Positions 1 through 45,100 of a DNA stretch of 64,000 nucleotides are shown here, in pieces (position 1 is the first letter of the stretch; the number at the start of each line of letters is the position of its first letter). This DNA comes from Eledone cirrhosa (Eukaryota): assembly GCA_964016885.1 (NCBI GenBank), contig OZ024741.1, positions 381,362,001-381,426,000 on the forward strand, read 5' to 3'. The notes under the pieces are model-generated. The model saw only the letters and a program-made list of their open reading frames with translations, ran no database searches and was not told the DNA's origin. The position numbers were made by a program, and so were the translations under genes.

Positions 1-790
1 ACTCAAGCAAATTATGTTGTAGGAAGTATGTCTGGTATAATCCAATTTTTAATGCTTCGATTAGTACAAAACTATCTCTTTTATTCTTTAAGTTGATTAA
101 CAAGCATTTCGCTAATTCCCATAAATACAGTAACATTCTAAACTCTAAGACTATTAAGCTATCATACTCCACTGCACCAAACCTAGAAACACGCATAAAC
201 AACTTAACTTAAAGCGATTATTAAACAACACTACAAAACAAAATATTTTAGACACAGATGGGCATAACGTAATATCAACTTCCCAACCACCAAATGGGAA
301 ACAAGTATTATACAACCCACCTGTACTGTTATCCCAACCTATCCATGGTACAGTTGTTACCCATAACCAAAACTGTAATTGCCTCCTACCCGAGTGATGC
401 CCATTGAAGAGTAAATGTCTGGAGTCCAACATTGTTTATTAATGCGCAGTCGAATCAAACGACCAGAAATGGTATTACGTCGGGTCTACTACTACCTCCT
501 TTAAATCACGCTGGTATCGTCATCGATTTTCGATTAAACATCCTGAACACCGCTATGTAACTACACTCGCTAATAAGATCTGACAACTCCGCGAACACAA
601 CCAGAAGTTCACCCTAAAATGGGATAAATTATCCAGCGCTAGTGAATATCGGAGTGGATTAAAATACTGCAGATTATGCAACCTTGAACTTTTTTATAAC
701 TTGAAATCTAAAACAATTTACTAATTAACGATCGTTATACTGCAACCACAAACTGAAGGCTAAATTTTCTCACTATAAAAGTAACGTAGC
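1..790 (+). pseudogene. Degenerate 3' part of a Penelope-like element ORF (linker + GIY-YIG endonuclease), Naiad-type
   Basis: Manual translation gives RKYVWYNPIF, TIKLSYS, NCNCLLPE*CPLKSKCLESNIVY*CAV, YYVGSTTTSFKSRWYRH and YCRLCNLE, collinear with the C-termini of ORFs 18351-20480 and 8727-10469. Contains stops and frameshifts. Confidence 0.85.
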
Positions 791-1662
791 ATAATTTAAA
801 CTCGCAACTATTACACCAATTTTTCGCTAACTAATTTAACTCATTACTTACTTCCCCCACCCCCACCACACAACTACTAACCAGTACCGTACTTATCATA
901 ATAAATGTATACTTAAGTACGATCAGCAAACTACAACTATCAACTCGGTGTAAATCACCTTTCCTTCCCCTTTCTTAATTTTTTTTGTCCCCCCTCTCTC
1001 TCTTTCTCTTGCTCTCTCTCGCTCTCTGTCTATCTACCTCCTTCTTCACATCGATTAACCTGCAGTCTGTGGCAATAAATAATTCCAAACTTGATACTAT
1101 CAACACAATGCCTAAGTTGTCTCTTTGAGAGTAAGCAGTATAATAAAACCACTTGTTGGACAACTGTCATACATTTAGATTAAGCTATCTGTATTCTTCA
1201 AACCTCGCTCTCCCACTTCTCCTACCCATATAAATATATATCTCTCCATCTCCCTTTCTTTCTCTCCTCCTTTACTACGCTATCTTCCCCAATTATTCCC
1301 TTTGAGAAATATAAAGAAACTATGGTTCAACCATTCCTTCTGACGAGCAGCATTTGAAAATTGAGTATCTGCAAATTAATAACTACTAATTTGCATATAG
1401 CAAGATTAGTCTGTGTAACTACTATAGAAACCTTTGCAAACACCTGGAATCAATTTCCATTTTATGATGTCTATCTGTTTTGTTAATGATTCTTTATCTA
1501 CACTCCGTAATATTAAAGAATGGAATACCAAGTTTCTTTAACTATCTTTTGTAACTCGTTGAGTAACCCCTCACCGTATGTCGACACTATCTAGTGTAGT
1601 AATTAACATTACTGCATTCAGGAAAATCCTAACAATTTCTTGCATGACTTTATATTTATATA

Positions 1663-1700
<38 letters not shown>

Positions 1701-1702
<2 letters not shown>

Positions 1703-2890
1703 ATAATAATAAAATTGAAGACTAAAATCCAAAGAGGGCTCGATAAGGAAAATATATATCAAATATATAAGAACCGTAGAGCAAATATTTATTAAAATAA
1801 CAGATTAAAGTTTAAGCAAATCATCGCTGCTTTCACCCTTAACGGGATCTTCTGAAACTAACAAAGTCAATCTGTAAACGCAGAACTGGATATTTCAAAA
1901 ACCGTTGCAACCGGAGGAAGACGGGAAGACGATACTTTGGTTCGTGGTAACGTTCGCTGGCAAAGAACAGGAAAAAACGAATAATACGTCATTAATAGGA
2001 GCGGTGAAAAACAATTACGCGCAAAGACAAAACCACGTTTATGGTATAAAAGAGGTCGTAGACTAATGTTCTCTTAGGTGGTGCATATAGACGTTCTCTG
2101 GCAATGAACGAAAAAACGAAGATAATAAGTCATATGTGGAGCGTGGAGAAGAATAGCACACAAAGACAAAGCCACGTAAACGGTATAGCAGAAATCGTAG
2201 ACTAAAATTCTAACTAGGAGACCAAATGAATCTCCGCTACAGAGTTAAGAACAAAGTAAATAAATACAATACAGAAGTAATAGAAACAAATAAATACATA
2301 CACGCAAACAGATACGTATATACACGAGCATACGCAAAACCTTACCATGGGTATACAAAACCACGCACATATAAATATGTGTGTGTGTGTGTATGCTTGT
2401 GTACAAATAAATAAATAATTATATAAACGTATATAAGTAAATAAATACGTATATAACAAGCACACACGCATACCTACATATAAATACACGAATGTTCGGA
2501 GACGTAAGTCAACTAAAACAAGAAGTACACATATACACACACCCACCATACGTACGAACCTGCACACTCACGCGGACGCAAAACTCCCGTATACACGTAG
2601 CCAAACCCTAAATACCAGAATATGAAAAGCTATACGCTATAACAGTCAAATATACGTACGAGAAGGTATACGTACCTTCACAAAACATACGGGTAATATA
2701 TACTTACCTATGCAAATAAGTAAAGGAATAAACAAAACATACACTTAGCTCCCACATCAAGACGTAAAATATCCACGTATAGATCGTGCTATCCGTTAGG
2801 GTATAACGTGGGGCTGTAATACAGGAAAGTTTTGTGCAATTTATGTTTACAAGCCGAAATTGCCTCAGATTTTTTGTTTAAGATGTGGTC
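1701..2890 (-). mobile_element. Solo pseudo-LTR (plus last ~33 codons of the ORF) of the PLE at 17158-21600
   Basis: Near-identical by eye to 20526-21460 and 17161-18452. 2790-2890 matches ORF end 18351-18452. Begins at a (TA)n tract. Confidence 0.9.
1801..1874 (-). ncRNA. Type I hammerhead ribozyme, variant core CAGAAGA
   Basis: Minus strand: AGTTT-CAGAAGA-T-CCC-GTTAA-GGG-T-GAAA-GCA..TGC-TT-AAACT, with a distal stem I extension CAGATTGA/TTAATCTG. Confidence 0.7.
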
Positions 2891-3430
2891 CGTCGGTCAT
2901 GACACTAGAAGAGGTACATATTTAAATTGTATTTTAATTTATTTAAAAGATTGTTCAATGTTTACTTGTTCCGCTCATATTTACAATTCTGGTATCTAAA
3001 ATTAGTATCATAGAACAACCATATATATTTCCGTGGGTACCTAATACCTACTGAGATATCTATATCAATTATCTGTATTCTTCTTAATGTAGAGAAAAAA
3101 CTGCTGTATCATGCTGCTATTTCTAGTAGCATGAAATATCAGCGCGTTTATATTTCCCTCTTTTTCTAACGGTCCAATAAGTGTGTGGGTCATTTTAACG
3201 GTTTGATTCATTCACAGGACAGAGGGTGATATATCTACATCTATGCGGACTTATGTCTAGTATATTTGGAAATGCTATCTGAAGAGCTATATTTTTCCAT
3301 TGGAAATTCTCTGAATTTCCAATCTTTTGATAAGCGAAACCGTCGGTCATGGCACTAGAAGAGGTAAATATTTCAATCCTATTTTAATTTATTTAAAAGA
3401 TTGTGTAATGTTTACTTGTTCCGCTCATAT
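2890..3430 (+). mobile_element. Non-coding HHR-containing unit of 450 nt plus ~90 nt terminal redundancy (retrozyme-like or pLTR-only element)
   Basis: 2890-2980 is repeated at 3340-3430 (offset 450). The repeat starts inside HHR stem III (CCGTCGGTC). No ORF. Confidence 0.7.
3273..3354 (+). ncRNA. Type I hammerhead ribozyme
   Basis: TGCTAT-CTGAAGA-GCT..(ATTGGAAATT/AATTTCCAAT)..AGC-GAAA-CCGTCGG-TC-ATGGCA. All three stems pair. Predicted GUC cleavage after 3348. Confidence 0.9.
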
Positions 3431-3656
3431 ATACACATATATATAATACATATTATATATATATATATATAATATATATTATATATAATATATATTATAT
3501 ATATATATAATGAAGTCAGTGTATTTGAATTATACTTTGTTTATTGATTACTTTCTTTACTGTTATATATATTTCAATGGTAGCTATTATGTAATAGACA
3601 CGATCTCATCAGAGATCAATTGTTCAATCATTATGTATATATACATATACATCGGA

Positions 3657-6963: not shown

Positions 6964-7000
<37 letters not shown>
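6287..7000. repeat. Tandem duplication of ~375 bp (6287-6661 / 6662-7000) including poly(A) and CA/TA-rich tract
   Basis: ATTCTTTAAAAGCTAAAATCATTAAGG starts at both 6287 and 6662, and the units are near-identical. Confidence 0.9.
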
Positions 7001-7002
<2 letters not shown>

Positions 7003-7044
7003 CAATATTAAATAAATGGAAAACTATATTTATAAAACCATATT

Positions 7045-7110
7045 TATTTCATTATATATATTTCGGGGATATCATATTAACAATATGCTATGCCTTCATC
7101 AGACAAAATA
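7045..7110 (-). ncRNA. Type I hammerhead ribozyme in pLTR
   Basis: Reverse-complement copy of 12139-12204. Confidence 0.75.
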
Positions 7111-7455
7111 CAATATAAACAGTTTTATAGATAAATATATTCGACATACCGTAATAAACATCAACTGCAACTAGCAGTGAAAATACAGAGAGAAAGAAAG
7201 AGAGAAAGAAAAGAGGGAAAAACGAAAGAAAGAAAGACAAAACGAAGAAAAGGAAGAAAAAGAAGAAAAAGAAAAAGAAGAAATGCATGGAACAAAATAG
7301 AGAGATGGAAAAATAGATAAAGTGAAGAGCTTCATGTAAAGAAACAGAAAGATATATATATATAGAGAGAGAGAGGAAATAGAGATAGATACATATATAT
7401 ATATAGAAAATTGGGTAGTGGGAGGTCATTTTGAGTAAGTCTATCAATGATATAT

Positions 7456-7486
<31 letters not shown>

Positions 7487-8726
7487 GCTCAAGTATTAAT
7501 GTAAGGGAGATATATAGAGAGATATAGAGAGATATAGAGAGAGAAAAAAAATTTTAAAATATCCAGACATATTCGAGGCGTAGAAAACCCTATGTTTTAA
7601 TGTATTAGTATTTATAAAACTTACACTACACTGTAAATATCAGTATTCCTGAATGAAACAAGTATTCACAATGTGTGAAAATTCATTATCTTATGTTTAG
7701 TTTTAAAAATTCATATGTCTATGTGACAGCTACAAATCTCAATGTGAATCCAACTGATTCACTCCGCAAACTCTAAGTTATCGGAAAACATTCTCAATGT
7801 GGTATAAACATTTGAGCGTATTATTATTCTTGCGATTACTCTACAAGATTATCTATCAAGCAGAAATAGAGAGCAGATTTCAATATACTAATCGAAAATA
7901 TATATTATATTATAAACATAATAATAAGTAAAAATATAGAATAGAAAACTAAAAAAATATTACGAAAGAATATTACATAATAAAAATATTGCATATTAAA
8001 AATACTACGTATTAAAAAATATTACGTATTAAAGATTTACATATAAAAATTTACATATAAAAATATACATATAAAAATTTACATATAAAAATTTACATAT
8101 AAAAATATATAAAAATATTAAAAAAAATAAAATAAAAATAAAAATATTATAGAATACTACAATACTAAAAGAATAAAAGTAAAAATAAAAATAAAAATAA
8201 AAATAAAAATAAAAATAAAAATAAAAATAAAAATAAAAATAAAAATAAAAATAAAAATAAAAATAAAAATAAAAATAAAAATAAAAATAAAAATAAAAAT
8301 AAAAATAAAAATAAAAATAAAAATAAAAATAAAAATAAAAATAAAATGAAAATAAAAATAAACCACAAAAAACAACCCTCCAAAGTTAATTGACAATATA
8401 TTGCCAAGTTCACTACAAGACAAAGCCAAAAATTATCTATCAAATCACATCTAGCAAAGAATATCGTAAAAAGATTATGATGTCCAATAATGTCTACATA
8501 TGTTCCTATGTTTAATATAGAAGTTTATCTAGTGTAAGGTTAATTCAAAAAATTTGGAGCATCGGCTTTTAGGGTAGCTTAATTTTTCATGAGGAATGTT
8601 TAGATAAAAATAAAAATAAATAAAATAAAATAAACAATAAAAAGAGTAAAACGAGGGAATCAAAGATTTAGGAATCAAAAGATTTATCGGCTAGTTCTCA
8701 CATAAACATAAATCAAACTAAATATA

Positions 8727-10440
8727 CTACATTTTAAATTTAAATTTATATTTAAACGTTGAGTTTAATCTATGTTTGCAACAACTGAATAAATTTGTCC
8801 GTAGGTTAAGGGAGTTTTTAGATTTTAGTATAAAGAATATCTCCTCTGCGCAGAGGTCACATGTCTCAGAGGATGAATTAAAAGGAATCCCTCTTGAGAC
8901 TATATTCCAAGCCGTCGAATATCTAACGTTATCTAGCTTAAGTTGCCAGAGTACCCCTGATAGTGCCGTTGAAGATTTTTTATTTGGATCTGTGAAATAA
9001 TTCTTGTGGTTATTATAGCGAAGTTTAAATTCCGTCGATGTGGAACCGACGTAGTTAAAATAATTAGAGTCAGTATTAACATTACAATTGTATACTATAT
9101 TTTTAACTAAGCAGTTGTTATTTAACGGACATTTAGATCTATCTCTACAGTTACATTTGTTAACTTTTATATTATTTATGCTATTATCAGTAGGTTTTAA
9201 GTTCCTATTATTTATTCTATTAATATTTTGTGCTAAATTTTTGGTGGATGAGTAGGTTAATTTAATTGTATGCCTATTGAAGATTGAGTGATACCTATGT
9301 GTTCTAGGGAAGCGATTATCAAGAGCTTTGAAAAATAATTTAGTGATGTGGGTTTTAATGTTTAGTGAGAAAGGGGGAGCAAACCAAATTATGTTCCTAG
9401 TTCTATTTCTTTTTTGTCCTTTGGAATTATTGTAATGCTTTCTATTATAGTTGTTAATGTTGTTGCCGTAATTAAAAAAGTTGTTACTTTGTTTAGTTTG
9501 TCTATCATTATCTATGTATACAATCTTATCAGCATACCCTGCCCTAGCTAGTGCATCATTATAGTATTGGGCCTTTTCGTCAAAAATCTTTCTATTCGAC
9601 GAGATCCTAGAGATACGTTTTTGGACTGAGTTTACTATAGTGTTTTTGACAGATCTGGGGTGGTTAGAGTTAAAGTTGACATAGTTTAAGTTTTCATTCA
9701 ACTTGTGAAAAGGATAGTGGAGACATGTGTTGAGATTTAATGTTATATCTAGGAAATTGACTATTCTATGGTTGTTCTCAATTTCTATTTTAAGGTTAAA
9801 GTAATTAAAAAATTTTGTAATTTGTTTACATTTTCTATTTAGTTCAGGGTTATTATTATTAATAAGTAAAAGCATGTCATCCCTATATAAACCTCCGGTA
9901 GTACCAGGTATTTTCCTATGTAGCGAATTGATTAAAAATAAGCCCACAAGGTCAGTTACCTGAGCTGAGTCGGAAGATCCCATAGTTATGTCAAAATTGC
10001 TATCTCTATCTGCTCTAGTCCATAATTTGTCATTAAATTCTATCAGAGTTTTCCTAGCCGATAATATAATATGCATTTCTTTGCTAGTTAGGTCCGTATG
10101 TTTGAATGCGTAATTTAGTGCCCTATTTAGTAGACTAGGGGTAATAGAAGAATAATAGTTAGCTATATCAAGTTGAATAAACCTATTATTATTGTCATAT
10201 TTAATTTGCCTAAACCACTCAACAACCTCTCCAGTTCCCTTCCACAAGCTCAGGTTAGATACACAATCCAAGTTCTTAATTTGCAGTATCACCCTGTCAA
10301 GAATGCTTTTACTTAATTTTCCCAGGTCCGATTTTGAAGGTGCGATCAATCTCACTGGCAGGTCATTTTCAAAATTGCTCTTGTGGTCCTTCATATTGAT
10401 CTTCGGTTTCCTGGGCACGAAAGGTTGTGTTCTGTTCTCA
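8727..10440 (-). CDS. PLE reverse transcriptase + GIY-YIG endonuclease, open but 5'-truncated
   Basis: Motifs KDHK, FIQLDIANYYSSI, DITMGSSDSAQVTDLVG, GGLYRDD, NFLDITL, CNC-x5-CPL-x3-CL, NIVY..YVGSTS..R..H, CDLC and CKH. The first ~10 residues of the tracked ORF (10441-10469) derive from the inverted arm. Confidence 0.92.
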
Positions 10441-11760
10441 ATATTCGACGGCTTGGAATATAGTCTCAAGAGGGATTCCTTTTAATTCATCCTCTGAGAC
10501 ATGTGACCTCTGCGCAGAGGAGATATTCTTTATACTAAAATCTAAAAACTCCCTTAACCTACGGACAAATTTATTCAGTTGTTGCAAACATAGATTAAAC
10601 TCAACGTTTAAATATAAATTTAAATTTAAAATGTAGTATATTTAGTTTGATTTATGTTTATGTGAGAACTAGCCGATAAATCTTTTGATTCCTAAATCTT
10701 TGATTCCCTCGTTTTACTCTTTTTATTGTTTATTTTATTTTATTTATTTTTATTTTTATCTAAACATTCCTCATGAAAAATTAAGCTACCCTAAAAGCCG
10801 ATGCTCCAAATTTTTTGAATTAACCTTACACTAGATAAACTTCTATATTAAACATAGGAACATATGTAGACATTATTGGACATCATAATCTTTTTACGAT
10901 ATTCTTTGCTAGATGTGATTTGATAGATAATTTTTGGCTTTGTCTTGTAGTGAACTTGGCAATATATTGTCAATTAACTTTGAAGGGTTGTTTTTTGTGG
11001 TTTATTTTTATTTTCATTTTTATTTTTATTTTTATTTTTATTTTTATTTTTATTTTTATTTTTACTTTTATTCTTTTAGTATTGTAGTATTCTATAATAT
11101 TTTTATTTTTATTTTATTTTTTTTAATATTTTTATATATTTTTATATGTAAATTTTTATATGTAAATTTTTATATGTATATTTTTATATGTAAATTTTTA
11201 TATGTAAATCTTTAATACGTAATATTTTTTAATACGTAGTATTTTTAATATGCAATATTTTTATTATGTAATATTCTTTCGTAATATTTTTTTTTAGTTT
11301 TCTATTCTATATTCTTACTTATTATTATGTTTATAATATAATATATATTTTCGATTAGTATATTGAAATCTGCTCTCTATTTCTGCTTGATAGATAATCT
11401 TGTAGAGTAATCGCAAGAATAATAATACGCTCAAATTTTTATACCACATTGAGAATGTTTTCCGATAACTTAGAGTTTGCGGAGTGAATCAGTTGGATTC
11501 ACATTGAGATTTGTAGCTGTCACATAGACATATGAATTTTTAAAACTAAACATAAAATAATGAATTTTCACACATTGTGAATACTTGTTTCATTCAGGAA
11601 TACTGATATTTACAGTGTAGTGTAAGTTTTATAAATACTAATACATTAAAACATAGGGTTTTCTACGCCTCGAATATGTCTGGATATTTTTAAATTTTTT
11701 TTTCTCTATATATATCTCTCTATATCTCTCTATATATCTCCCTTACATTAATACTTGAGC

Positions 11761-11791
<31 letters not shown>

Positions 11792-12138
11792 ATATATCAT
11801 TGATACACTTACTCAAAATGACCTCCCACTACCTAATTTTCTCTCTATATATATGTATCTATCTCTATTTCCTCTCTCTCTATATATATATATATATCTT
11901 TCTGTCTCTTTACATGAAGCTCTTCACTTTATCTATTTTTCCATCTCTCTATTTTGTTCCATGCATTTCTTCTTTTTCTTTTTCTTCTTTTTCTTCCTTT
12001 TCTTCGTTTTGTCTTTCTTTCTTTCGTTTTTCCCTCTTTTCTTTCTCTCTTTCTTTCTCTCTGTATTTTCACTGCTAGTTGCAGTTGATGTTTATTACGG
12101 TATGTCGAATATATTTATCTATAAAACTGTTTATATTG

Positions 12139-12204
12139 TATTTTGTCTGATGAAGGCATAGCATATTGTTAATATGATATCCCCGAAATATATATAATGA
12201 AATA
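12139..12204 (+). ncRNA. Type I hammerhead ribozyme in pLTR
   Basis: TATTTTGT-CTGATGA-AGG..(CATATT/AATATG)..CCC-GAAA-TATATA-TA-ATGAAATA. 8-bp stem I with two G-U pairs, palindromic stem III, AUA triplet. Confidence 0.75.
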
Positions 12205-12332
12205 AATATAGTTTTATAAATATAGTTTTCCATTTATTTAATATTGTAAATATACTCCAAATATTTGTCGAGTGCTTTTATATCAGTTATAAATATTTAC
12301 TAGTTGTAACCCAACAATTTTAAATATTACTT

Positions 12333-12380
<48 letters not shown>

Positions 12381-13019: not shown

Positions 13020-14090
13020 ACATTCTCTACCACATGTTTGGCAAGCATGATGAGTAGCATCTCCAACAGCAGCCTGGTAGTCAACCACTGGTCTTAAATT
13101 TATGACTGCGAAGATGACTTTCGAGTCCAGCTTTGCTTAGGCAGAGTCTCGCACAGACGCTGCATGTCAGCACCATAGGAGGACCCTCGCCGTCTGGAAG
13201 TGCAACAGCACTGCCCTTCCTCACGTCCCGCTTTACTTTCTCGTGTGCGATTCGAGATGCCTCGAAGGCAACTTTTCCCTCATATACAGTCTTTCTCCAT
13301 TTATTACGATCAGCAGCAATATTTTCCCATGTATCAGCAGAGATGTTAGCGTCTTTCAGAGAGGCTTTCAAGGAATCCTTATACCTCTTTTTTGGTTTAT
13401 GTGGCGGTCGTTTTCCTTTAACCAACTCTCCATAGAAGAGTTGTTTTGGTATTCTAGAATCCTTCATCCTGGCAAGGTGACCACTCCAACGGAGTCGTTG
13501 CTTAAGCACAAGAGCTTCTATACTGTCACACATAGAGCTTTCCAAAATCTCGACATCACTGATGTGGTCCCTCCAGTGAACGCCATGGATCCGTCTGAGA
13601 CACATCTGATGGAAACGCTCCAATTGCTTAAGGTGGCGTCGATATGTGACCCAGGTCTCGCAGGCATAAAGAAGACAAGAGAGTACACATGCCCTGTACA
13701 CCCTTACCTTTGTCCTCCTGCATATGTCTCGCCGACCCCAGAGTCGCCTTTCTAGCTTTCCGAAAGCATCACTTGCTTTCCTAACCCTAAGTGAGATTTC
13801 ACTGTCAAGGTTGCCGTATCAATTGACAGTGCTTCCCATGTAGACAAACTGATCAACCACTCCAAGTCGTTTGCCATACACATAGATGTTTGGTTCAGTG
13901 TACTGCTTACTAGGGGCAGGTTGGTACATGACGACGGTTTTCTTGAGACTGACAGTCAAACCCAGGGCAGTGCAAGCGTCAGAAAATGCATTCAAAATAT
14001 GCTGCATATCCCTCCTTGTGTGCGCTACAAGATCGCAATCATCTGCATACAAGAGGTCTCTTTTGACTGATGTAAATACTTTTGTCTTCG
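13020..14090 (-). mobile_element. 5'-truncated RTE-clade LINE (RT C-terminal half + terminal C2H2 finger)
   Basis: LLYADDCDL, FVYMGS, LLYACETW, LRWSGHLARM..RIPKQLFYGEL and CSVCARLC..HLRSH. Tracked ORFs 13819-14181 and 13081-13701 are in frame across one TGA. Confidence 0.9.
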
Positions 14091-17145: not shown

Positions 17146-17173
17146 ATATATATATATATATTTATTAAAATAA

Positions 17174-17247
17174 CAGATTAAAGTTTAAGCAAAGAATCGC
17201 TGCTTTCACCCTTAACGGGATCTTCTGAAACTAACAAAGTCAATCTG
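17174..17247 (-). ncRNA. Type I hammerhead ribozyme, variant core CAGAAGA (3' pLTR)
   Basis: Same fold as 1801-1874. Stem III is GAAA-GCA-GCGATTCTT-TGC-TT. Confidence 0.7.
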
Positions 17248-17358
17248 TAAACGCAGAACTGGATATTTCAAAAAACGTTGCAACCGGAGGAAGACAGGAA
17301 GACGATACTTTGGTTCGTGCTAACGTTCGCTGGCAGAGAACGGGAAAAAACGAATAAT

Positions 17359-17540
17359 TGTTTCTACTTTAGGCACAAGGCCAGCAATTACCCAGTGCAT
17401 TACTGGTACTTTATTTTATCGACCCCGTAAGGATGAAAGGCAAAGTCAACCTCGGCGGGATTTGAACTCAGATCGTAAAGGGACGTAGCTATGCTGGAAA
17501 GCATGGCGTCCGACCCTCTACCGATACTGCCAATCCACCG
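17359..17540 (-). mobile_element. tRNA-derived SINE inserted in the 3' pLTR
   Basis: A-box-like TGGCAGTATCGG, B-box GAGTTCAAATCC, core GCCTTTCATCCTTACGGGGTCGATAAAATAAAGTACCAG. TSD CGAATAAT at 17351 and 17541. Absent from the other pLTR copies. Confidence 0.92.
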
Positions 17541-18350
17541 CGAATAATACGTCATTAATAGGAGCGGTGAAAAACAATTACGCGCAAAGACAAAACCACC
17601 TTTATGGTATAAAAGAGGTCGTAGACTAATGTTCTCTTAGGTGGTGCATAGAGACGTTCTCTGGCAAAGAACGAAAAAACGAAGATAATAAGTCATATGT
17701 GGATCGTGGAGAACAATAGCACGCAAAGACAAAACCACGTAAATGGTATAGCAGAAATCGTAGACTAAAATTCTAACTAGGAGACCAAATGAATCTCCGC
17801 TACAGAGTTAAGAACAAAGTAAATAAATACAATACAGAAGTAATAGAAACAAATAAATACATACACGCAAACAGATACGTACATACACAAGCATACGTAA
17901 AACCTTACCATAGGTATACAAAACCACGCACATATAAATATGTGTGTGTGTGTATGCTTGTGTACAAATAAATAAATAATTATATAAACGTATATAAGTA
18001 AATAAATACGTATATAAAAAGCGCACACGCATACCTACATATAAATACACGAATGTTCGGAGACGTAAGTCAACTAAAACAAGAAGTACACATATACACA
18101 CACCCACCATACGTACGAACCTGCACACTGACGCGGACGCAAAACTCCCGAATACGCATAGCCAAACCCTAAATACCAGAATATGTAAAAATTATACGCT
18201 ATAACAGTCAAATATACGTACTAGAAGGTATACATACTTTCACGAAACATACGGGTAATATATACTTACCTATGCAAATAAGTAAAGGAATAAACAAAAC
18301 ATATACTTAGCCCCCACATCAAGACGTAAAATATCCACGTATAGATCGTG

Positions 18351-20480
18351 CTATCCGTTAGGGTATAACGTGGAGCTGTAATACAGGAAAGTTTTGTGCA
18401 ATTTATGTTTACAAGCCGAAATTGCCTCAGATTTTTTGTTTAAGATGTGGTCTGTAGCGTAGAGTATTTCCAGAGCCTCAGCGGCGCAGAGGTCACATGG
18501 TCTTTTATTTCCGTTATACGATCTAGCCCTAGCTAGGATCTCCCAGTGTAACTTATATTGGGTGTGGATGTCTTTTAGACTCCAGATATAAGCTGAAAGT
18601 GACGTCATATTCCTTCTTAGAGGGTAACGAAAAGAATGGGTATGCATGTAAAGACGCTGCTTGAAACTATTGGCGGTTAACCCTATGTAGGCCCTACGGG
18701 ACGTGGGTGTTACACCCTTACATTTGTAGACAATGTTACTAGAGAGGTATTTCCCGGATAGGGGGCAATCAGCCCGATTCCTACAATTACAGTTAGTACT
18801 AACTAGAGGGTTGCACGTGTTCCTACAGCTAGGTAGTTTAGCTAAATTTGAAGCTGTGATGTTATGTGCAAGGTTAGGAGTCGTAGAGTAAGAAATTTTA
18901 ATAGTATTTCTATTAAAAATTTTACTATATTTATGTGTAGGGGGAAAATGCTTCGTAATAAGGGAAAGAAAGATCTTAGCTAATGGTGTGGCCACCTCCA
19001 TATTATATGGTGGGTTAAACCAACAAATGCGAGGGAATCTATTTCTTCTAGGTCTATTTTCGTACTCTGTATATGCTACCTTATCGACAAATCCACTTCG
19101 AGCAAGAGCTTCATTGTAATAAGTGGAAAGGTCGTTGAAAATGCGCTCGTTCGTGGGAAGACGGGAAAGCCTCAACGAAAGGTTTCTTACCAGGTTCTTG
19201 GTTATGCTGGCAGGATGGTTGGAATGCTTACTTATGTAATTAAGCGTATCATTCGGCTTTCTATACGGGTAATACAACCCATTCAATAAATTGAGGGTAA
19301 CGTCGAGGTAATTAACGACCGAGAGATTGGCCTCAACCTGTATAGAGAGGTTGAAGGCTTTAAAGAAGGCTGTGAGTTCTTTTCTGAACCTGTCGCAAGC
19401 ACGAGGTCCGCACTTAGTCATGGTCAAAAGACCATCGTCACGGTACAAGCCACCGCCCACGTTGGGGAATTCGTCCTTGATAGAGAAAAGAATGAAAAGG
19501 CCAATAAGATCAGTAACCTCCGCAGAGTCACTGGCGCCCATACTCACGTCGAATGGGGTACTATTGGATTTTTTAATCCAAGTAGAGTCGTCGAAATTAA
19601 TCACCGACTTTCGGGCATTAAGGATGACATCAACTTCAAAATCCTTAACCACTGTGAGTGTTTTAGCGAAATTGATAGCTCTAAGGAGAAGTGGTAAAGT
19701 GATGGAGGAATAGTAATTGTTGATGTCGAATTGGATAAAATGGCAATGTTCCTTGTTACATATGCCGTTGAACCAATCAATCACCGCGAAAGAATTGTTC
19801 CACAGTGCGAGAGGGGCCAAGCTTCTAATTTCAGGTATAATTCTATCAAGAATCGTTTTACTAAGTCTACCTAAATCGGACTTCGTAGGGTTAATAAGCC
19901 GAATAGAGGGGTTGTTCGGAAAATTGGATTTGTGATCCTTCAGGGTAAAGTGGGGAGAGATAGTGTCCAGAGGTTCGGTCCGGTCCAGGATGTTGAGATC
20001 AGAATTGATTTTAAACCCAACATCGTTGATTTCGTTGATGACGCACCGATTAGTTTTACGGTAATCCTTAGTTACAGCATTATGTAGTAGTTGATGGTAA
20101 GTACTGCGCTCCACTTGATATAGGTTGCCAGTTTTCTCGGAATGGACGTGCACGGCGTTAGAATCCTTAATAGAACGAATTCTATTCTTCAGTTCTAGCT
20201 GGAAGGAATTGCTCCTATTCCGAAATTTGATATTCCGAATGAGTTCCAAGGCATCATTTTCGAAGGGTAGCAATGCTGGGTTCCACGGAGGGTTATTATA
20301 GGTTTTAAATCCAAATTTATCCTGTTTGTTGTCTGCTTTTCGCGGATTATCGAAATAAAAGGCACGCCAACGCAACCTTTTAATGAACGCGTCTGTTTTC
20401 TGTATCAGGAGTTTTAGGTATGTTTTCCTGCTTGGTACGGGTATGTTCTTTGTAGAAATATTCAGATGTTGTTTCTGCAT
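18351..20480 (-). CDS. PLE polyprotein: reverse transcriptase + GIY-YIG endonuclease (709 aa)
   Basis: ATG-to-stop open frame with KRLRWRA, KDHK, FIQFDINNYYSSI, VSMGASDSAEVTDLIG, GGLYRDDGLL, NYLDVTL, CNC..CPL, NIVYKC..YIGLT..R..H, CDLC and CKH. Confidence 0.95.
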   Translation of the reverse strand: MQKQHLNISTKNIPVPSRKTYLKLLIQKTDAFIKRLRWRAFYFDNPRKADNKQDKFGFKTYNNPPWNPALLPFENDALELIRNIKFRNRSNSFQLELKNRIRSIKDSNAVHVHSEKTGNLYQVERSTYHQLLHNAVTKDYRKTNRCVINEINDVGFKINSDLNILDRTEPLDTISPHFTLKDHKSNFPNNPSIRLINPTKSDLGRLSKTILDRIIPEIRSLAPLALWNNSFAVIDWFNGICNKEHCHFIQFDINNYYSSITLPLLLRAINFAKTLTVVKDFEVDVILNARKSVINFDDSTWIKKSNSTPFDVSMGASDSAEVTDLIGLFILFSIKDEFPNVGGGLYRDDGLLTMTKCGPRACDRFRKELTAFFKAFNLSIQVEANLSVVNYLDVTLNLLNGLYYPYRKPNDTLNYISKHSNHPASITKNLVRNLSLRLSRLPTNERIFNDLSTYYNEALARSGFVDKVAYTEYENRPRRNRFPRICWFNPPYNMEVATPLAKIFLSLITKHFPPTHKYSKIFNRNTIKISYSTTPNLAHNITASNLAKLPSCRNTCNPLVSTNCNCRNRADCPLSGKYLSSNIVYKCKGVTPTSRRAYIGLTANSFKQRLYMHTHSFRYPLRRNMTSLSAYIWSLKDIHTQYKLHWEILARARSYNGNKRPCDLCAAEALEILYATDHILNKKSEAISACKHKLHKTFLYYSSTLYPNG

Positions 20481-20625
20481 GATGAATATAAGTCAATAGA
20501 GTGCTCAACCGAAGGAGCCAAATATTAATAATAATAAAATTGAAGTCTAAAATCCAAAGAGGGCTCGATAAGGAAAATATATATCAAATATATAAGAACC
20601 GTAGAGCAAATATTTATTAAAATAA

Positions 20626-20699
20626 CAGATTAAAGTTTAAGCAAAGAATCGCTACTTTCACCCTTAACGGGATCTTCTGAAACTAACAAAGTCAATCTG
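20626..20699 (-). ncRNA. Type I hammerhead ribozyme, variant core CAGAAGA (5' pLTR, ~150 nt upstream of ATG)
   Basis: Same fold. A stem III C>T change gives a U-G wobble and preserves pairing. Confidence 0.7.
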
Positions 20700-21617
20700 T
20701 AAACGCAGAACTGGATATTTCAAAAAACGTTGCAACCGGAGGAAGACAGGAAGACGATACTTTGGTTCATGGTAACGTTCGCTGGCAAAGAACGGGAAAA
20801 AACGAATAATACGTCATTAATAGGAGCGGTGAAAAACAATTACGCGCAAAGACAAAACCACATTTATGGTATAAAAGAGGTCGTAGACTAATGTTCTCTT
20901 AGCTGGTGCATAGAGACGTTCTCTGGCAATGAACGAAAAAACGAAGATAATAAGTCATATGTGGAGCGTGGAGAACAATAGCACGCAAAGACAAAACCAC
21001 GTAAATGGTATAGCAGAAATCGTAGACTAAAATTCTAACTAGGAGACCAAATGAATCTCCGCTACAGAGTTAAGAACAAAGTAAATAAATACAATACAGA
21101 GATAATAGAAACAAATAAATACATACACGCAAACAGATACGTACATACACAAGCATACGCAAAACCTTACCATGGGTATACAAAACCACGCACATATAAA
21201 TATGTGTGTGTGTGTATGCTTGTGTACAAATAAATAAATAATTATATAAACGTATATAAGTAAATAAATACGTATATAACAAGCGCACACGCATACCTAC
21301 ATATAAATACACGAATGTTCGGAGACGTAAGTCAACTAAAACAAGAAGTACACATATACACACACCCACCATACGTACGAACCTGCACACTGACGCGGAC
21401 GCAAAACTCCCGAATACCCATAGCCAAACCCTAAATACCAGAATATGTAAAAATTATACGCAATTTGTGCAATTTATGTTTACAAGCCGAAATTGCCTCA
21501 GATTTTTTGTTTAAGATGTGGTCTGTAGAGTATTTCCAGGGCCTCAGCGGCGCAGAGGTCACATGGTCTTTTATTTCCGTTATACGATCTAGCCCTAGCT
21601 GTTATACCGTATCATTT

Positions 21618-22960
21618 TTACATATTAATCTCATCAGCCGAGATTGGTCCCTCGCAGGACTCTGCCTCTTTGCTCGAGAGACGCGGCAGGCCGTCGAGGT
21701 ATGGACCGAAATCCACGTCCCCGCCAAGACCCTCGCCTCCCCCGAATAATCGGGTAAAGTGCCTTTGAAAGGCCTCGCACATATGCTTAGGCTCCCGGAT
21801 CACCCGTCCATCCTCGTCTTGCAACGACCGGATGGTGGATCGATTTCCACTCTTAGCTTCTGTCACGCGGGCCCAGCCAACGGCTTTGGTCCCCTCATTA
21901 CCTAGAGCACGTATTTTACTTCGAATGACGCAGCCTTCGTGCTTTGCATCGAAAAGCTGGTTCAAGGCCGTCCTCGATGCCAGTACTCTGGCCACATCTT
22001 CGCTCTTGATTGCCTCTTCTAAATTACCTGTTAATTCTTTCTCGTTTCTATTCCTATCGGCAGCTAACATCTTGCTATAACTTATTGATTCTCTCTAATC
22101 TCTCTTTTGAGAGATGCCCACCATCGGTTGTTGACGATTGCAGCCGTCAAACTCTCCTTAACTAATCTGCTAATCCGGTTTCTGTAAGTCTCTTTTGCCG
22201 GTAAAGACAAATTAAGTTTCCAGTAACCGGGACCCTGTTTATGTGTTTTCTCGAGATTGACTACCCAGGTCACTAATTTGTGATCCGTATAGCCAACCGT
22301 GAGCATTTCTGGACAGCTTAATATGTCCCTATCCTTACTTCTAACTAAGAATCTATCTAAGTACGATCTAGATTGACCACTGTGGTTCGTCCAAGTCCAG
22401 GTAGGCCAAGTTAGAAAATCTAGTCGATATCTATCGACCAAGTTAAAACGGTCGAGTAACCCCTTGAGGCTGTTACACCCCCCTCTATTAGGAAATGCTC
22501 CTGCATAGTCCCAACGTGCATCTAGGATGTCATTCCAATCCCCCGCTAGAAGCAGGGAACGCGACGTTCCCAGAAAAGTCTCCAAACGCTGGAAGAAGTC
22601 GGGCCGTTCAGCTCCGAAAGGGGAGTAGACAGCGACCAGTGTCAAGGCCGCACCTTCACTACTGCCAACGTCTAGCATCAACAAACGACCCTCCGGGTCC
22701 GAGTGAACAACCTGTACGGCAAGACCCAGGTGTTTTTGCAGCAGTACGACAACCCCACCCCCACCTCAAGGTTGACAGAGAGATGCATGCACCTCAAAGT
22801 CATCGAAGGTAGGGGCCAGCTGACGCACGACGCTGATCCGAGTCTCACAGATCACCATTACATTTATACCACATGACCTGAGGTCATTTAGAAGCTTTGC
22901 TTGCTTCCAAGTTGAGCCCAGGCCACGTGCATTCAAACATCCTACTCTTAACACATCCAT
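21618..22960 (-). pseudogene. LINE ORF2 N-terminus (APE endonuclease), frameshifted
   Basis: VGCLNARGL, ICETR, VAVYSP, LAGDWN, SYLDRFLV, TDHKLV and GPGYWKLN. Confidence 0.88.
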
Positions 22961-22993
22961 GTGGGCGGCAAAGCCAAAGGAGAGTGAAGAGAC

Positions 22994-24726
22994 CTACCTT
23001 TCTGCTTCCCGGAGTTCGGGTCGCACGACTTCCATGGGGTCGGGGGTGTTGGGTGAAGGGGTGTCTTGTGGTGGTGTGGGGTCGTCAGTGTGTGGTGGGG
23101 TTGGGGTGTTTGGAGTTGTGTTGGGGAGGGGAAGGGGAGGGAGAAAGGTTGTTAGTAGGACGCGTTTTATGGGTTTGACAGAGGGTGGTTCTACGTCCTC
23201 CTTAAAATCCTTTTTTAGTTTTTGGTAGAGGTTCATTGGGATCTTTATTACTTTTAAATGTGGGTAGTTTTCTGAAGAAACAAAGTTTACACGTTCGGTT
23301 TGTACCGAAGGATTATTGTTTATGAGTTCATTTAATTTATCATTGTTTCTGTTGATGTAAGTATAGTGTAATGTCTTTTTTTCGGATGGTGTGAGTGTTT
23401 CGAAGAGGGGAGGGGCAGGTTTGGTTTTGTTTGTTGCTGGAGGGGTGTTTTGTGTTTTGTTGGATTGTGTTGACATTTGGGTGGGGGTTGTTTGGCCTTG
23501 TGTGTTTTGCACATGTTTTCTTTTCTTCCTTTTAATCTGTCTGAAGGACTCCGTTTCTTCCTCCGAATTCGTTGGGTTATCTTCAGTGTTGGAGGGGAGA
23601 GGTATGTTTGCTGGTAATATTTCCGTGTTGGTTTTCTTTGTGGGGAGATGGATTTCACTATGTTAGACTGTGTTGTGTGTTGTGGCTGCGGTGGTTGTGT
23701 TGTTTTATTGAGTGAGGGGTTGGGTGGGCCTGTATTTTGTTATGGGGTAATTTGTTGTGACTGTTTGTGTGGTGGTGGTGGTGTAGTTTTACTGAGGGAC
23801 GGGTTGGGTGGGACTGAGTTTTGTTGTTTGTTTATCTGTTGTGGTGGTGGAGCTGGTGTTGGTAGCAGGGTTTTCTTTTTGTTGAGTTGGGGACAAGCCG
23901 GCTTCAGGTGCCCTCTTCCTGCACAGATATGACAGGACGGCCTTCTCCCCTCCACGCTAATGTTTATATACCCGTGGCCCTCTAATAGGATTCTGTCGGG
24001 TATTTGGGCGATGCGTTCAGGCTTCATTTGCACTACAAGTTCTATACCTGTTCCTCTGAACGCATTGCCTGTGGTTTTCCCAATGGAAATCACGTTGTCA
24101 TTCGCTGGATCGATGAAGCCAGCTATGAGCCAGCAGTAGTCCACATCTGGCATCATTGCATCCAGCCATATGCGTTGAGTTCTTTTACCCATATAAGATG
24201 GATAAAAGGTAAAATTTTTCGAAAGTATCGGTGACAAAACGCATGTTTTTGCCGCCGATTCGTTCTTCATAATAATCGCTAGGCTTCCATACAGTCTGTC
24301 TTTTCTTATGAAAGTGGTTTCATTAAGTACTTCTGTAAGTACTGTTTTGATTTCTGTTTGAGTTTGCTGTTCAGATTTTTTAGAAATGTTGTTGATGGTG
24401 CGGAAAACGATCGTTCGACTTTCAATGTCTTTGGTGAGTTCTTGAGGCATTTTTACCGATAAAATACCATTCTCTCCTTCAGTTATATATTGTTTGGCGT
24501 CTGCAATTCTTTGTGCCACATCTGAAATATTTTCAGGTATATATGTCAAAGATTTCTTTGTTGTTTGTGCAAATGAAATCTTATTGGTGTTGACTTTGTC
24601 GTCTGCTTTGCTTTCTGTTATGATGTTGTTTTCAAATGTTATTTTTGTGTTTGTCGTGTCTTTGTTTGTGGTATTAATATTGTCATGCAATTTTTCAAAT
24701 TTTTTTTTTTCGTTGTTGGAATCCAT
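22994..24726 (-). pseudogene. LINE ORF1 (CCHC zinc knuckle, Pro/Thr/Gln-rich tail), disrupted
   Basis: ISVEGRRPSCHICAGRGHLKPACP. Stop at 23740 and a later frameshift. Confidence 0.8.
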
Positions 24727-25220
24727 GTCCAGATCTGTGTTTTCGTCATTTTTCTCCGCAAATTCGTCTGTTTTTCTTTTATTTTGTCCTTCCTTCTCTA
24801 TGACGTTAGTTGGGAAGGAAGGGGGGGGGGGCTAAAGCGTGCGAGCTTACAACTCTTACCGCTGTCCCCCCACCACTATTTTCGTTGGCTTCGTTTAACA
24901 TTTCTGTCAGACGATTGAAATTTTTTTATGCCACAACATTTTTAAAAACAGGTTTTTCACCCCTAGGAGGGGTAAAGATGAGCTGACCCACCGCCTGAGA
25001 GTTCAGACGGGGAGGGGGGGGGGGGGGGTCAAGCTACACAATAGTATAAAAATTAAAATTGAACTTACAAAATTTCCGCAATAAATTTGAACAAAACTTC
25101 TGCGCGAAGTGAATTATATCTACGCTGTAGAACAGACGACAGCTAGATTTTGATATATATATATATATATAGATAGATAGATAAATATACACGGATGTGT
25201 ATGATTGTGTATAGAAGATT

Positions 25221-35541: not shown

Positions 35542-38921
<3,380 letters not shown>

Positions 38922-38924
38922 AGA

Positions 38925-39628
38925 ACTCCCTACCAAATATCTGCTGCACAAAAGGGGAGGGCCATCAGCTGACAATAAATGCAGGCTATGTAAAACAAAT
39001 ATCCAAGATGTAAGCCACATTGTTGCCAGCTGCGAAAGAATGTCATCTCGCTACTACCTCCCCATGAGACACGATGGAGTAGCTAGAACCATCTGGAACG
39101 CACTTCGGAAAACAAAATTAAAAACAAACGAGGAAGAATATATTGAAACAGATGACACTAAGGAATACTGGGGGATCCTGAAAATAAAAACTGCCACCAA
39201 ATTAAAGCACAACCGGCCTGATATTGTTGTTTGGGACCACACATTGAAAACGTGTTCTGTTGTGGAGATCAGCTGCCCACTTGATGTAAACGTTGTCAGA
39301 AAAATACAGGAGAAGGACATCTACTGACCATTGATGAGGAGTTTACAAATCCAGTATCCAAGATACACCTTTAGCTTCATACCCATCATTATTGGAGCTA
39401 CGGGTTATATACCAACCCGATTGGACCAAAGTATAACTGAACATGGATTTGCGGCCAAAGGGCGCAGCTCCCTAATTCATAGTCTACAAACGGCTGCGAT
39501 AGCTGGCATCTTCAAAGTTTGCAAAACATTCTTGCGATTCAAGGGATGAACATTTCTTTTCTTTTACAACCTTGCCACCAGGAAGGTGGCCGGTCAAAAA
39601 TATACTCGAAATTAAGAGAAAGAGAGAC
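38925..39628 (+). mobile_element. 3' fragment of a restriction-like-endonuclease non-LTR retrotransposon (R4/Dong- or NeSL-like)
   Basis: HIVASC, RHDGVA, RPDIVVWD..VVEISCP and FIPIIIGATG, with stops and frameshifts. Confidence 0.8.
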
Positions 39629-42153: not shown

Positions 42154-45100
42154 ATCAATATCTATAACAGGCAGGTTGTTGTGTGTGTGCACATGTTCCA
42201 TGTTTATACATTTGCACAATTTCAAACCGCTTCGATTCAGCGCCTGTAAGAAAGTTGTAAATGGTCTAACTTAGGTCAACGACTATTTATTTATTTCAAC
42301 CTCACCCACAACTACGGGAATAATCGATAAAACTAAATACATGACGCTTTAACCCTCTAATACAATCTGTGTAACTCCACCTAATTCCCTTACATACTGC
42401 AACCTTCTCTTATATACACTTATAAATCCACTCCTTAATAATTTCCTTCAGAGAGAGAGAGAAAAAAATAAAGGAATGTAGCCAGAGAGACAGAGACAGA
42501 GACCAACGTTAAATACATGACGCTTACATCTCTTATATACGTTTATAAACCCATTCCTTAATAATTTCACACAATTACATTTTGTGTATAACATATTTAC
42601 ACGTTTATTGAGTGAAACAAAAACACATAGGGATTTTGGGCCAAACAACCTCATATTGCTGACAGAAGCGCGCTTTAAACAAACTGTGAGTTATTTATTT
42701 GCCTCTGTAAGAATGTTGTAAATGGTCTAACTTAAGTCAACGACTATTTAATATATTTCAAAATCACACACACTTACGGAAATAATTTCCTATCTCTACT
42801 CAACATAAAAATCGAAAAAAAAAAATACATGCTCACACACAATTACATTTTGTGTATAACACATTTACACGTTTATTGAGTGAAAAAAACAAAACAAATA
42901 GGGATGTTTGGCCAAACAACTTCAAATTGCTGACAGAAGCGCGCTTTCAACAAACTGTGAGTTATTTATTTGCCGTTCGTTCTCCCAATTTTTCCCCTGC
43001 GGAACGCAGACAGTTTTCAGCATTATACTTTCAAAGGCAATTTTGCTGTACAAGTAACATTCACCCTTACTTTTTCACTTAAAATGCCACCTAAAAAGAG
43101 AAGTCGCCTCGGTCGCCGTATCGCGTCAGCGGCGGCGCAGAGGGCGATTACAGCAAATGAGCGGGTAATACGTCATTCCAAAAAAAAAACGCTTCTACTG
43201 CTACTTCCAGGGCTTCAGAGGGCCCGGATCAAAGGTCGACTCGCCTGAATAGAAACGCTGCTGCTTCTGCTGCTTCTAGGGCTTCAGAGGGCCCGGAACA
43301 AAGGGCGGCTCGACTGAATAGAAACGCTGCGGCTACTGCTGCTTCCAGGGCTTTGGAAGGTTTGGAACGGCGGACGAATCGCCTTGCTAGGAACTGCTAT
43401 GACTGCTTCCATGGCTTCTGAAGATGCAGACGGGCGCTCCATAAGGATTGCAAGGGTGGATTCTGCTACTGCTTCGAGAGCTTCCCACGACCCACAGGAG
43501 CAACATTCTACGTTGGAGCAGAACAGTCGACGACAAGAAGCTGCCTGCGGTGTGACGAGCGCCGATAGCCGATACTGGCACCTACGGGCTTTCAAGTATG
43601 AGCCCAACGTTAACTACTCGATGCGGGCTGACATAAATATAGGGGAAATGCGCTTCAATTCCAAATTCTGCATTGCTATGAAGTGGGCTGGGGAGCCACC
43701 TGCAATGTGCTGCTTAAACGGTAAGGTCAGCTTTCCCCCTCTTGGGAAACCACCAGAGCCTTTGCAGGAACTACTTACTGGTTCTACCTCAAGGTCATCC
43801 AAATTCCTTCAACTCATCAGGAAGTACAATTGTGCGTTTCAAATGACTTCTTTCGGGGCTAACGTTGTCAGAGAAAGTGATGGGATGCCTACTTTCAAGG
43901 CCCAGGGGCAGGTGTACCATCTTATTGGGTCGCTCCAGCCACTACAAAACTGAAAGCCTTCGTTCCTTCAAATTTACTTCATTTCTAATTACAGTAGGCA
44001 ATTTGATGCGCGGTTCGGCGTTATTCGAACACCTGCAAACACTGACGCTGACACTTTTGAAAGGGACGTGCTGCTCGGTCTTCAAAACATGCTTCATGAA
44101 CACAACAGTTATATTCGCAGTTTCAAATACGCATTGGAAATAAATCATTCACCAAACTTCACCATTGTCATCGATGCTGACAAAAGACCTTCTGGGGACC
44201 ACGCATGCCGTTATAACGCTCCTTCGTGCAATGAAGTGACCGTAGTAATCCATGCTGAACAGCACAATAAGCGAGACATAGTTCTTCAAAGTCGTGACAG
44301 TGGTCTTCGACATATTAATGAGACGCATTGTTTATACGACGCCCTGCAGTATCCCCTTCTTTTTGCATACGGAGAAGACGGATACCATTTCGGCATTCCT
44401 CATCGCAAACCAAACGATCCCACTGTGGCGACATCTAAAACTGTTTCATGCATGGCTTTATACTCATACCGCTTCATGACGAGGCCTAACGATTTCAGCA
44501 CCCTGCACAGGTCACGGGAACTGTTTCACCAGTTTGCAGTTGACATGGCTGCAAAGATGGAGTCGGAGAGACTGTGCTTCATAAAATTGAATCAGAAGCA
44601 GCTGCGCTCAGACTCCTACATCCATTTGCGTGACGGCATCAGGAATGACACTGACCCCTGGAACATCGGCAAACTGTGCATTCTCCCCTCAACCTATACG
44701 GGGGAGCCGCGGTACATGCACGAGCGAACACAGGACGCTATGACCTTCGTTCGGCATTATGGGCGCCCCGATTTATTCATCACGTTTACGTGTAAACCCA
44801 AATGGGTTGAGGTTACGCGGGAACTTATCCCAGGGCAGCAGTACTGCCATCAGCATGATAATATTGCCAGGGTTTTCAGGCAGAAGCTGGCTAAGCTAAT
44901 TGATCTAATAAAAAAAGGGAAGGTTTTCGGGCCTGTTAGGTGCCACATGTATACTGTTGAGTGGCAGAAGAGAGGGTAGCCACACGCGCACATTTTGGTT
45001 TGGTTGGTCACCAAAATAGACCCTACAGTTATAGATGACGTCATCGCAGCGGAAATACCGGACCCCGTTGTTGACCGGGAGCTGTACGACATTGTGAAGG

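What the first reader, a model, noticed from the sequence alone, without database searches (positions are those of the whole stretch)
2890..3430. Exact 450-nt HHR-to-HHR monomer fused to the truncated end of a Naiad pLTR
Seen: the terminal redundancy begins at CCGTCGGTC (2890), 9 nt before the equivalent of the cleavage site, and recurs at 3340 inside a textbook HHR, so GUC-to-GUC is 450 nt. The unit joins the opposite-strand solo pLTR at 2890 with no spacer, and the composite is bounded by TA-rich tracts at ~1665-1699 and ~3430-3510. Inference: RT passed around a ligated circle or dimer beyond the junction, and the chimera may record template switching between PLE RNA and a parasite RNA, which would link the two directly.
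Basis: partly seen in the sequence, partly recalled or inferred. Interest (0 to 1): 0.75.

Follow-up and report, generated by a model that had tools for sequence, protein, structure and literature searches.

The report
Penelope arm fused onto older retrozyme
A copy of a small non-coding jumping repeat with a predicted self-cutting RNA motif is joined directly to a fragment of a Penelope-type retrotransposon, but the fragment carries about a third as many mutations, so the join likely arose by a later insertion plus deletion, not by the copying enzyme switching between the two RNAs.

Summary
The sequence is as described, but the reading mostly fails. 2890-3428 is a 5'-truncated copy of a non-coding 464-nt type I hammerhead repeat (non-LTR retrozyme). 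It is 450 nt here because of a 15-nt deletion. Only the downstream hammerhead is complete, and the start 9 nt before the cut site is one of many scattered truncation points. The neighbour has a C-terminal endonuclease and Hydra-clade motifs, so it is not a Naiad.

Both families insert into TA tracts with two fixed 3' ends; 46 of 52 inverted retrozyme copies pair one long with one short end. The composite (PLE long end + retrozyme short end, head to head) fits that rule, which favours one event. Against it, the PLE arm is 1.5% diverged and the retrozyme arm 4.3% (p 0.0009). No second such join turned up among the other 130 solo arms, and L311 shows the same outward pattern arising from nesting plus deletion.

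Best reading: an older retrozyme with a younger PLE arm nested and fused (0.72). Repeated passes within copies share rare alleles, which favours a circle-like template. The scan reported such retrozyme families and the long/short rule before, on other DNA.

The parts
1..1662 (+). Older, unrelated TA-targeting repeat with two fixed ends (1500 and 1662); left neighbour sharing the TA tract
   Evidence: About 85% identical to other copies; 17 of 19 copies fetched reach 1660-1663, most then running into TA, and several have an inverted arm ending at 1495-1500
1651..1699 (.). Left (TA)n tract, target of the PLE arm's long 3' end
   Evidence: Tandem Repeats Finder
1697..2890 (-). 5'-truncated arm of a Hydra-like PLE, ending at the family's long 3' end; includes the last ~34 codons of the ORF and the 3' region; 1.5% diverged
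   Evidence: BLAST to 20522-21464 and 17541-18455; 30 genomic copies, 18 of 1194 sites differ from the column majority
1809..1859 (-). Hammerhead-like motif of the PLE with variant core CAGAAGA; activity untested
   Evidence: Read from the sequence and found by a relaxed scan in other copies; the hammerhead fold is not the minimum-energy fold
2890..2898 (+). 9-nt stub of the upstream hammerhead, the 5' truncation point and the junction with the PLE arm
2899..3348 (+). One retrozyme unit from cut site to cut site (464-nt family; this copy has a 15-nt deletion); no ORF over 62 codons
3273..3354 (+). Complete type I hammerhead, predicted cut after GTC at 3348
   Evidence: Motif scan, fold, core columns nearly invariant in about 190-216 segments
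3349..3428 (+). Second partial pass ending at the family's fixed short 3' end, about 80 nt past the cut site
   Evidence: 162 exact short ends genome-wide
3427..3509 (.). Right (TA)n tract
17158..21600 (-). Longer copy of the same Hydra-like PLE (ORF 18351-20492), used as the reference

Best explanation
The stretch is a truncated copy of a 464-nt hammerhead retrozyme joined without spacer to a Hydra-like Penelope arm, and the join likely formed in two steps: the retrozyme inserted first, and the Penelope element later landed in the TA tract at its 5' side and was fused to it by a deletion. Shown: the anatomy, the two fixed ends of each family, the age gap between the arms, and a parallel case (L311). 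Inferred: the retrozyme RNA is copied by a PLE enzyme that nicks TA tracts and starts reverse transcription at two internal sites (as shown in vitro for a Poseidon PLE, PMC11167929), probably from a circular RNA. Also inferred: the deletion removed the intervening TA, any short arm of the PLE and part of the retrozyme's 5' end, either during 5' joining or later. Which PLE family supplies the enzyme is not shown.
For: Age gap: the PLE arm differs at 18 of 1194 sites, and its nearest copy is 1.51% away. The retrozyme arm has 23 rare alleles in 536 sites (Fisher p 0.0009) and its nearest copy is 5.8% away. Non-CpG sites alone give 21/503 against 15/1086, p 0.0009. Allowing for source-borne variants, 10.9 are expected and 23 seen. 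The two passes differ at 7 of 89 sites and share no non-majority allele.

Calibration: arms of 28 inverted retrozyme copies agree in age (1 at p<0.05, minimum 0.03). Both arms of an insertion normally come from one template (rare alleles shared at 3.3/kb against 0.43 in controls).

Direct joins to foreign DNA are common: 33 of 131 solo retrozyme arms by rule and 6 of 62 resolved PLE long arms after inspection, in a family with at least 13,726 exact long ends. In L311 a PLE long arm is fused at a 4-nt overlap inside a two-armed insertion of another hammerhead family, which keeps part of its own inverted arm. The site is a pile-up: an ~85% element on the left, a 4% element on the right, and the 1.5% element between them.
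Against: The outer ends are exactly PLE-long plus retrozyme-short, head to head, the pairing that single insertions obey (46 of 52 inverted retrozyme copies, 0 short+short, 0 long+long). The junction has only 1 nt of exact microhomology. The pass-versus-pass test alone is weak (p 0.02, or 0.13 if clustered changes count as 5 events). Mutation rates were calibrated within the retrozyme family, not across the two families. No empty or half-filled site was seen. A 202-nt contig in run X1 spans the deletion site without a gap and with 5 differences; it could be an allele or an unassembled older source copy.
Confidence: 0.72

Rival explanations
1. One insertion with two templates. A PLE enzyme dimer primed both sides of a TA break; one side copied PLE RNA from its long site, the other copied an uncleaved transcript of an already old retrozyme copy from its short site, and the two cDNAs were joined head to head.
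For: The end pairing and orientation match the long+short rule, and there is no TA at the join. A PLE protein cleaves and extends both strands, starts at two internal sites and uses uncleaved RNA in vitro (PMC11167929). One copy (L093) has passes from two subfamilies, 20 differences in 120 sites, so mixed templates may occur. The X1 contig with the same deletion could be the source.
Against: It needs an old source; none was found among 39 top hits, 183 insertions or 30 array segments (at most 3 rare alleles shared). The only other copy with the deletion is independent. Both arms normally share a template. None of the other 130 solo arms joins a PLE of the window's three families directly. L311 mimics the pattern by deletion.
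Confidence: 0.2
2. One reading: RT ran round a ligated retrozyme circle past the junction and then switched to PLE RNA (or the reverse) in one event.
For: At family level, passes share rare alleles (29 in 5260 sites, 5.5/kb; control mean 0.39, maximum 1.5 in 500 shuffles), and arms reach 959 nt, about two units.
Against: A circle copied when the PLE arm was made would give two passes sharing the circle's variants and differing at about 2.7 of 89 sites; they share none and differ at 7. A simple switch would also give two parts on the same strand, but these are on opposite strands, each with its own 3' end in TA.
Confidence: 0.05
3. The join is an assembly error, or DNA-level recombination between unlinked copies.
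For: No listed contig piece bridges 2890 (output truncated). Both parts are high-copy repeats.
Against: There is no shared sequence at the join to guide either process. Each arm carries private mutations up to the join, and similar joins occur elsewhere.
Confidence: 0.03

Closest known systems
Metazoan non-LTR retrozymes (Cervera and de la Pena 2020, PMC7229834, parts 2-4 of 6 read; Li, Clavereau and Pollet, bioRxiv 10.64898/2026.07.22.740005, parts 1-3 of 5 read)
   Same: Non-coding, low-GC repeat of a few hundred bases with one type I hammerhead per unit; dispersed monomers and partial dimers plus a tandem array; PLEs proposed as the mobiliser.
   Different: The parts read describe neither fixed long/short ends nor direct PLE fusions. 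This unit shows no BLAST similarity to the window's PLEs, unlike the pLTR-related Xenopus families. Expression and circles are not shown here.
Hydra-clade PLEs (Craig et al. 2021, PMC8557442; sections 6 and 11, passages and a supplement keyword search read)
   Same: C-terminal GIY-YIG, CxCX5C linker, CxxC and CxH motifs, RWK-like and DKT-like motifs, (TA)n targets, partial tandems, inverted 5'-truncated arm, tail at one end only.
   Different: Motifs read RWR and EKT; the unit is about 3.3 kb; the tail is 88 nt against 30-40 bp; the hammerhead core is a CAGAAGA variant.
Poseidon PLE of Anolis, in vitro (Frangieh et al. 2024, PMC11167929, parts 1-2 of 4 read)
   Same: Two internal RT start sites define the tail; both strands of AT-rich DNA are cut and extended; hammerhead cleavage is not needed.
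   Different: Another clade and an autonomous element; the parts read report no mobilisation of a non-coding RNA and no long+short pairing rule.
Naiad PLEs (PMC8557442)
   Same: (TA)n preference, partial tandem and inverted structure.
   Different: Naiads have an N-terminal endonuclease and a DKA motif; this element has neither.

Membership tests
Naiad PLE | GIY-YIG endonuclease N-terminal to RT | tested here: not met
   The 713-aa frame has RT first and IVYKC...YIG at the C terminus (definition)
Naiad PLE | DKG motif changed to DKA | tested here: not met
   Reads EKT; position assigned by eye
Hydra PLE | Single ORF with C-terminal GIY-YIG | tested here: met
Hydra PLE | CxCX5C linker; CxxC and CxH beside the conserved E and N; no CCHH cysteine pair inside GIY-YIG | tested here: met
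   CNCRNRADC, CDLC, CKH, and one Cys between IVY and YIG (definition)
Hydra PLE | RWK and DKT motifs | tested here: inconclusive
   Conservative variants RWR and EKT
Hydra PLE | Canonical hammerhead | tested here: inconclusive
   Hammerhead-like motif with CAGAAGA core, not the minimum-energy fold
Hydra PLE | Insertion into (TA)n | tested here: met
Hydra PLE | Placement in the RT phylogeny | not tested
   No reference Hydra proteins were held as tool sequences
Non-LTR retrozyme | Type I hammerhead in each unit | tested here: met
   (257 junction matches with up to 1 mismatch)
Non-LTR retrozyme | Short tandem units, no coding capacity | tested here: met
   464-nt unit; 13.3-kb array with 23 full units; longest stop-free frame 62 codons
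Non-LTR retrozyme | No attached RT ORF | tested here: met
   In 183 insertions no fixed breakpoint leads into an ORF; direct contact with the window's PLEs only here
Non-LTR retrozyme | Self-cleavage and expression as linear and circular RNA | not testable with these tools
   No RNA holder listed; circle inferred from shared alleles only
Single-event PLE-retrozyme chimera | Head-to-head arms with one long and one short end | tested here: met
Single-event PLE-retrozyme chimera | Both arms of the same age | tested here: not met
   1.5% against 4.3%, p 0.0009; calibration
Single-event PLE-retrozyme chimera | Clean empty site at the orthologous locus | tested here: inconclusive
   One search covered 900-3422 only; the flanks are repeats

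The most novel reading that the evidence does not exclude
The composite is one insertion in which a Hydra PLE enzyme wrote its own RNA from the long start site on one side of a TA break and a retrozyme RNA from the short start site on the other, a physical record of a named PLE family mobilising a retrozyme in trans.
Probability: 0.2. Interest if true: 0.62.

Novelty: new member of a known kind. Interest (0 to 1): 0.3.

Why it matters
That PLEs mobilise animal retrozymes is proposed in the papers read but not shown directly. A single-event chimera would name the enzyme donor. This locus probably is not that record, and it shows why such joins mislead in genomes where many families pile into the same TA tracts: nesting plus deletion reproduces the head-to-head, long+short pattern. 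The family data remain useful, since fixed long and short ends and allele sharing between passes and arms tie this retrozyme to the PLE mechanism and to a repeatedly copied template.

Tried and rejected
Rfam scan: no hammerhead among the rows shown, only microsatellite-driven miRNA hits below threshold. Pfam gave only a weak RVT_1 hit for the PLE ORF.

A one-step genome search for chimeras with a wide gap was not possible, so I fetched loci by end motifs instead. That samples 183 insertions of a family with 2029 first-look candidates, so further chimeras may exist; 0 of 130 gives an upper bound of 2.3% of solo arms.

No RNA holder listed, which is no evidence on expression. Contigs of four runs laid on 900-3422 resolved no empty or half-filled site, and the right flank was not covered.

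Source copy: the 15-nt deletion occurs in one other place, an independent copy. The C3 tandem array is not the evident source of dispersed copies (at most 3 rare alleles shared with any unit). Special meaning of the -9 start: rejected. Retrozyme as the pLTR of an autonomous element: rejected for the sampled copies.

Literature searches listed no paper whose title or abstract start describes PLE-retrozyme fusions. The library lacks most subscription journals, and the preprint's supplements were not seen.

Full report
Observation. The redundancy is real: 2890-2985 recurs at 3340-3435, offset 450, 91.7% identical. A type I hammerhead spans 3273-3354, the only hit of a strict scan of both strands of the window; stems I and II appear in the fold. 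Upstream, 1697-2890 matches the PLE at 17158-21600 at 96-97% on the opposite strand and meets the repeat with no spacer. TA tracts bound the composite.

Corrections. The family unit is about 464 nt; this copy lost 15 nt between two ACCA repeats, a deletion found once more, independently. The upstream junction keeps only 9 nt of the ribozyme, so this copy could cut itself only once. The 5' ends of 235 arms are scattered along the unit (stubs under 18 nt are scored as position 1), so the -9 start is ordinary truncation. The PLE's 713-aa frame has RT, a CxCX5C linker, a C-terminal GIY-YIG, and CDLC and CKH motifs. These match the Hydra definition and fail the Naiad one (PMC8557442 sections 11 and 6). 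No tree was built.

The repeat family. A genome search gave 2029 first-look candidates, 39 scored. There are 162 exact short ends, 26 exact long ends and 257 junction matches with up to one mismatch. Of 265 loci held, I left out 35 (31 from the PLE-arm and deletion searches, 4 on the array) and collapsed overlaps to 183 insertions; two pairs look like duplicated segments. Fifty-two are inverted head to head: 46 pair a short end (about 80 nt past the cut site) with a long end (about 190 nt), none pairs like with like, and 6 have one arm ending elsewhere. The other 131 are solo arms. A 13.3-kb tandem array with 23 full units lies on C3. No fixed breakpoint leads into an ORF, and the window copy has no frame over 62 codons. 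This is a non-LTR retrozyme in the sense of PMC7229834 (parts 2-4 of 6 read).

How it is copied. The PLE shows the same architecture, with ends at 1785 and 1697. Of 67 long-end loci, 5 ran off the locus; 44 of the other 62 have an inverted partner, which the script scored as ending at the short end in 26. Two internal start sites, cutting and extension of both strands, and no need for ribozyme cleavage were shown for a Poseidon PLE (PMC11167929, parts 1-2 of 4). In the first 143 loci, successive passes within an arm share rare alleles at 5.5/kb (29 in 5260 sites, 56 pairs, one diverged arm excluded) against 0.39/kb in 500 permutations; the two arms of inverted copies share them at 3.3/kb against 0.43. 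One template is therefore normally copied more than once and on both sides. A circle is the simplest reading; a homogeneous uncleaved multimer is not excluded. Dispersed copies share at most 3 rare alleles with any array unit.

Is the join one event? For: the composite is head to head with a PLE long end and a retrozyme short end, the pairing single insertions obey, with no TA at the join. Against: age. The PLE arm differs from the majority of its 30 best copies at 18 of 1194 sites, and its nearest copy is 1.51% away. The retrozyme arm has 23 rare alleles in 536 sites (p 0.0009; the same without CpG sites). It is among the 8 most diverged of 129 arms, and its nearest copy is 5.8% away. Its two passes differ at 7 of 89 sites and share no variant; this test alone gives p 0.02-0.13. 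Arms of 28 single insertions agree in age. Rates across the two families were not calibrated.

How common such joins are. Thirty-three of 131 solo retrozyme arms abut non-microsatellite DNA by an automatic rule that over-counts somewhat. Only this one abuts a PLE of the window's three families directly; 13 other arm ends have such a PLE within 120 nt. The PLE has at least 13,726 exact long ends. Nine of 62 long arms met foreign DNA by rule; inspection removed three, leaving six. L311 is a long arm fused at a CGAA overlap inside a two-armed insertion of another hammerhead family, which keeps part of its own inverted arm and ends in TA. It looks like this window's composite from outside, but the retained piece of the partner's inverted arm points to nesting and deletion. 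One in 62 scales to about 220 such cases genome-wide (95% range 6-1190). Here too the site is a pile-up: 1-1662 is an older two-ended TA-targeting repeat, so the youngest element sits between two older ones.

Unresolved. Contigs of four runs laid on 900-3422 showed no empty or half-filled site. One 202-nt contig of X1 spans the deletion site without a gap and with 5 differences; it may be an allele or a sister copy. No RNA holder was listed.

Verdict. An ordinary retrozyme copy fused to a younger Hydra-like PLE arm, most likely by nested insertion and deletion (0.72). One event from two templates keeps about 0.2, and the circle-plus-switch form about 0.05. Four searches listed no report of such fusions; the preprint's supplements were not seen. 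Earlier notes of this scan describe similar families and the long/short rule in this and other genomes. I had found the rule before reading them and took from them only the pointer to PMC11167929.

Noticed in passing
G000:C3:162363007-162376347 (L247:3007 to L248:6347): Tandem array of the same retrozyme, 23 full units plus fragments, TA at both ends, ending at the short end; units average 4.7% from the family majority and share variants in a higher-order pattern, suggesting DNA-level expansion.
   Followed up: partly
L311:1501-2004: PLE long arm fused by a 4-nt overlap inside a palindromic insertion of another hammerhead family, whose copies also mostly pair a long with a short end.
   Followed up: partly
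window 1809-1859 (-), also near 17182-17232 and 20634-20684: The Hydra-like PLE carries a hammerhead-like motif with CAGAAGA in place of CUGANGA, seen in several copies.
   Followed up: partly
window 6995-12340: Second Hydra-like PLE (ORF 8727-10481, CxCX5C) as an inverted two-armed insertion with a CTGATGA hammerhead core, short end at 6995 and long end near 12340.
   Followed up: partly
window 1-1662: Older TA-targeting two-ended repeat (ends at 1500 and 1662) with a decayed hammerhead-like core near 1340-1440.
   Followed up: partly
L093:2331-2916: Two successive retrozyme passes differ at 20 of 120 sites, many subfamily-diagnostic, suggesting a switch between two retrozyme templates.
   Followed up: no
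window 36971-39013: Fragments of a further PLE-type RT on both strands (RVT_1 hit, E 1.5e-4).
   Followed up: no
window 43318-47546: Broken frames that resemble a Helitron Rep/helicase (label recalled, not tested).
   Followed up: no
window 13081-13818 and 21618-24831: LINE-like fragments (RT end; endonuclease and a zinc-knuckle ORF); labels recalled, not tested.
   Followed up: no
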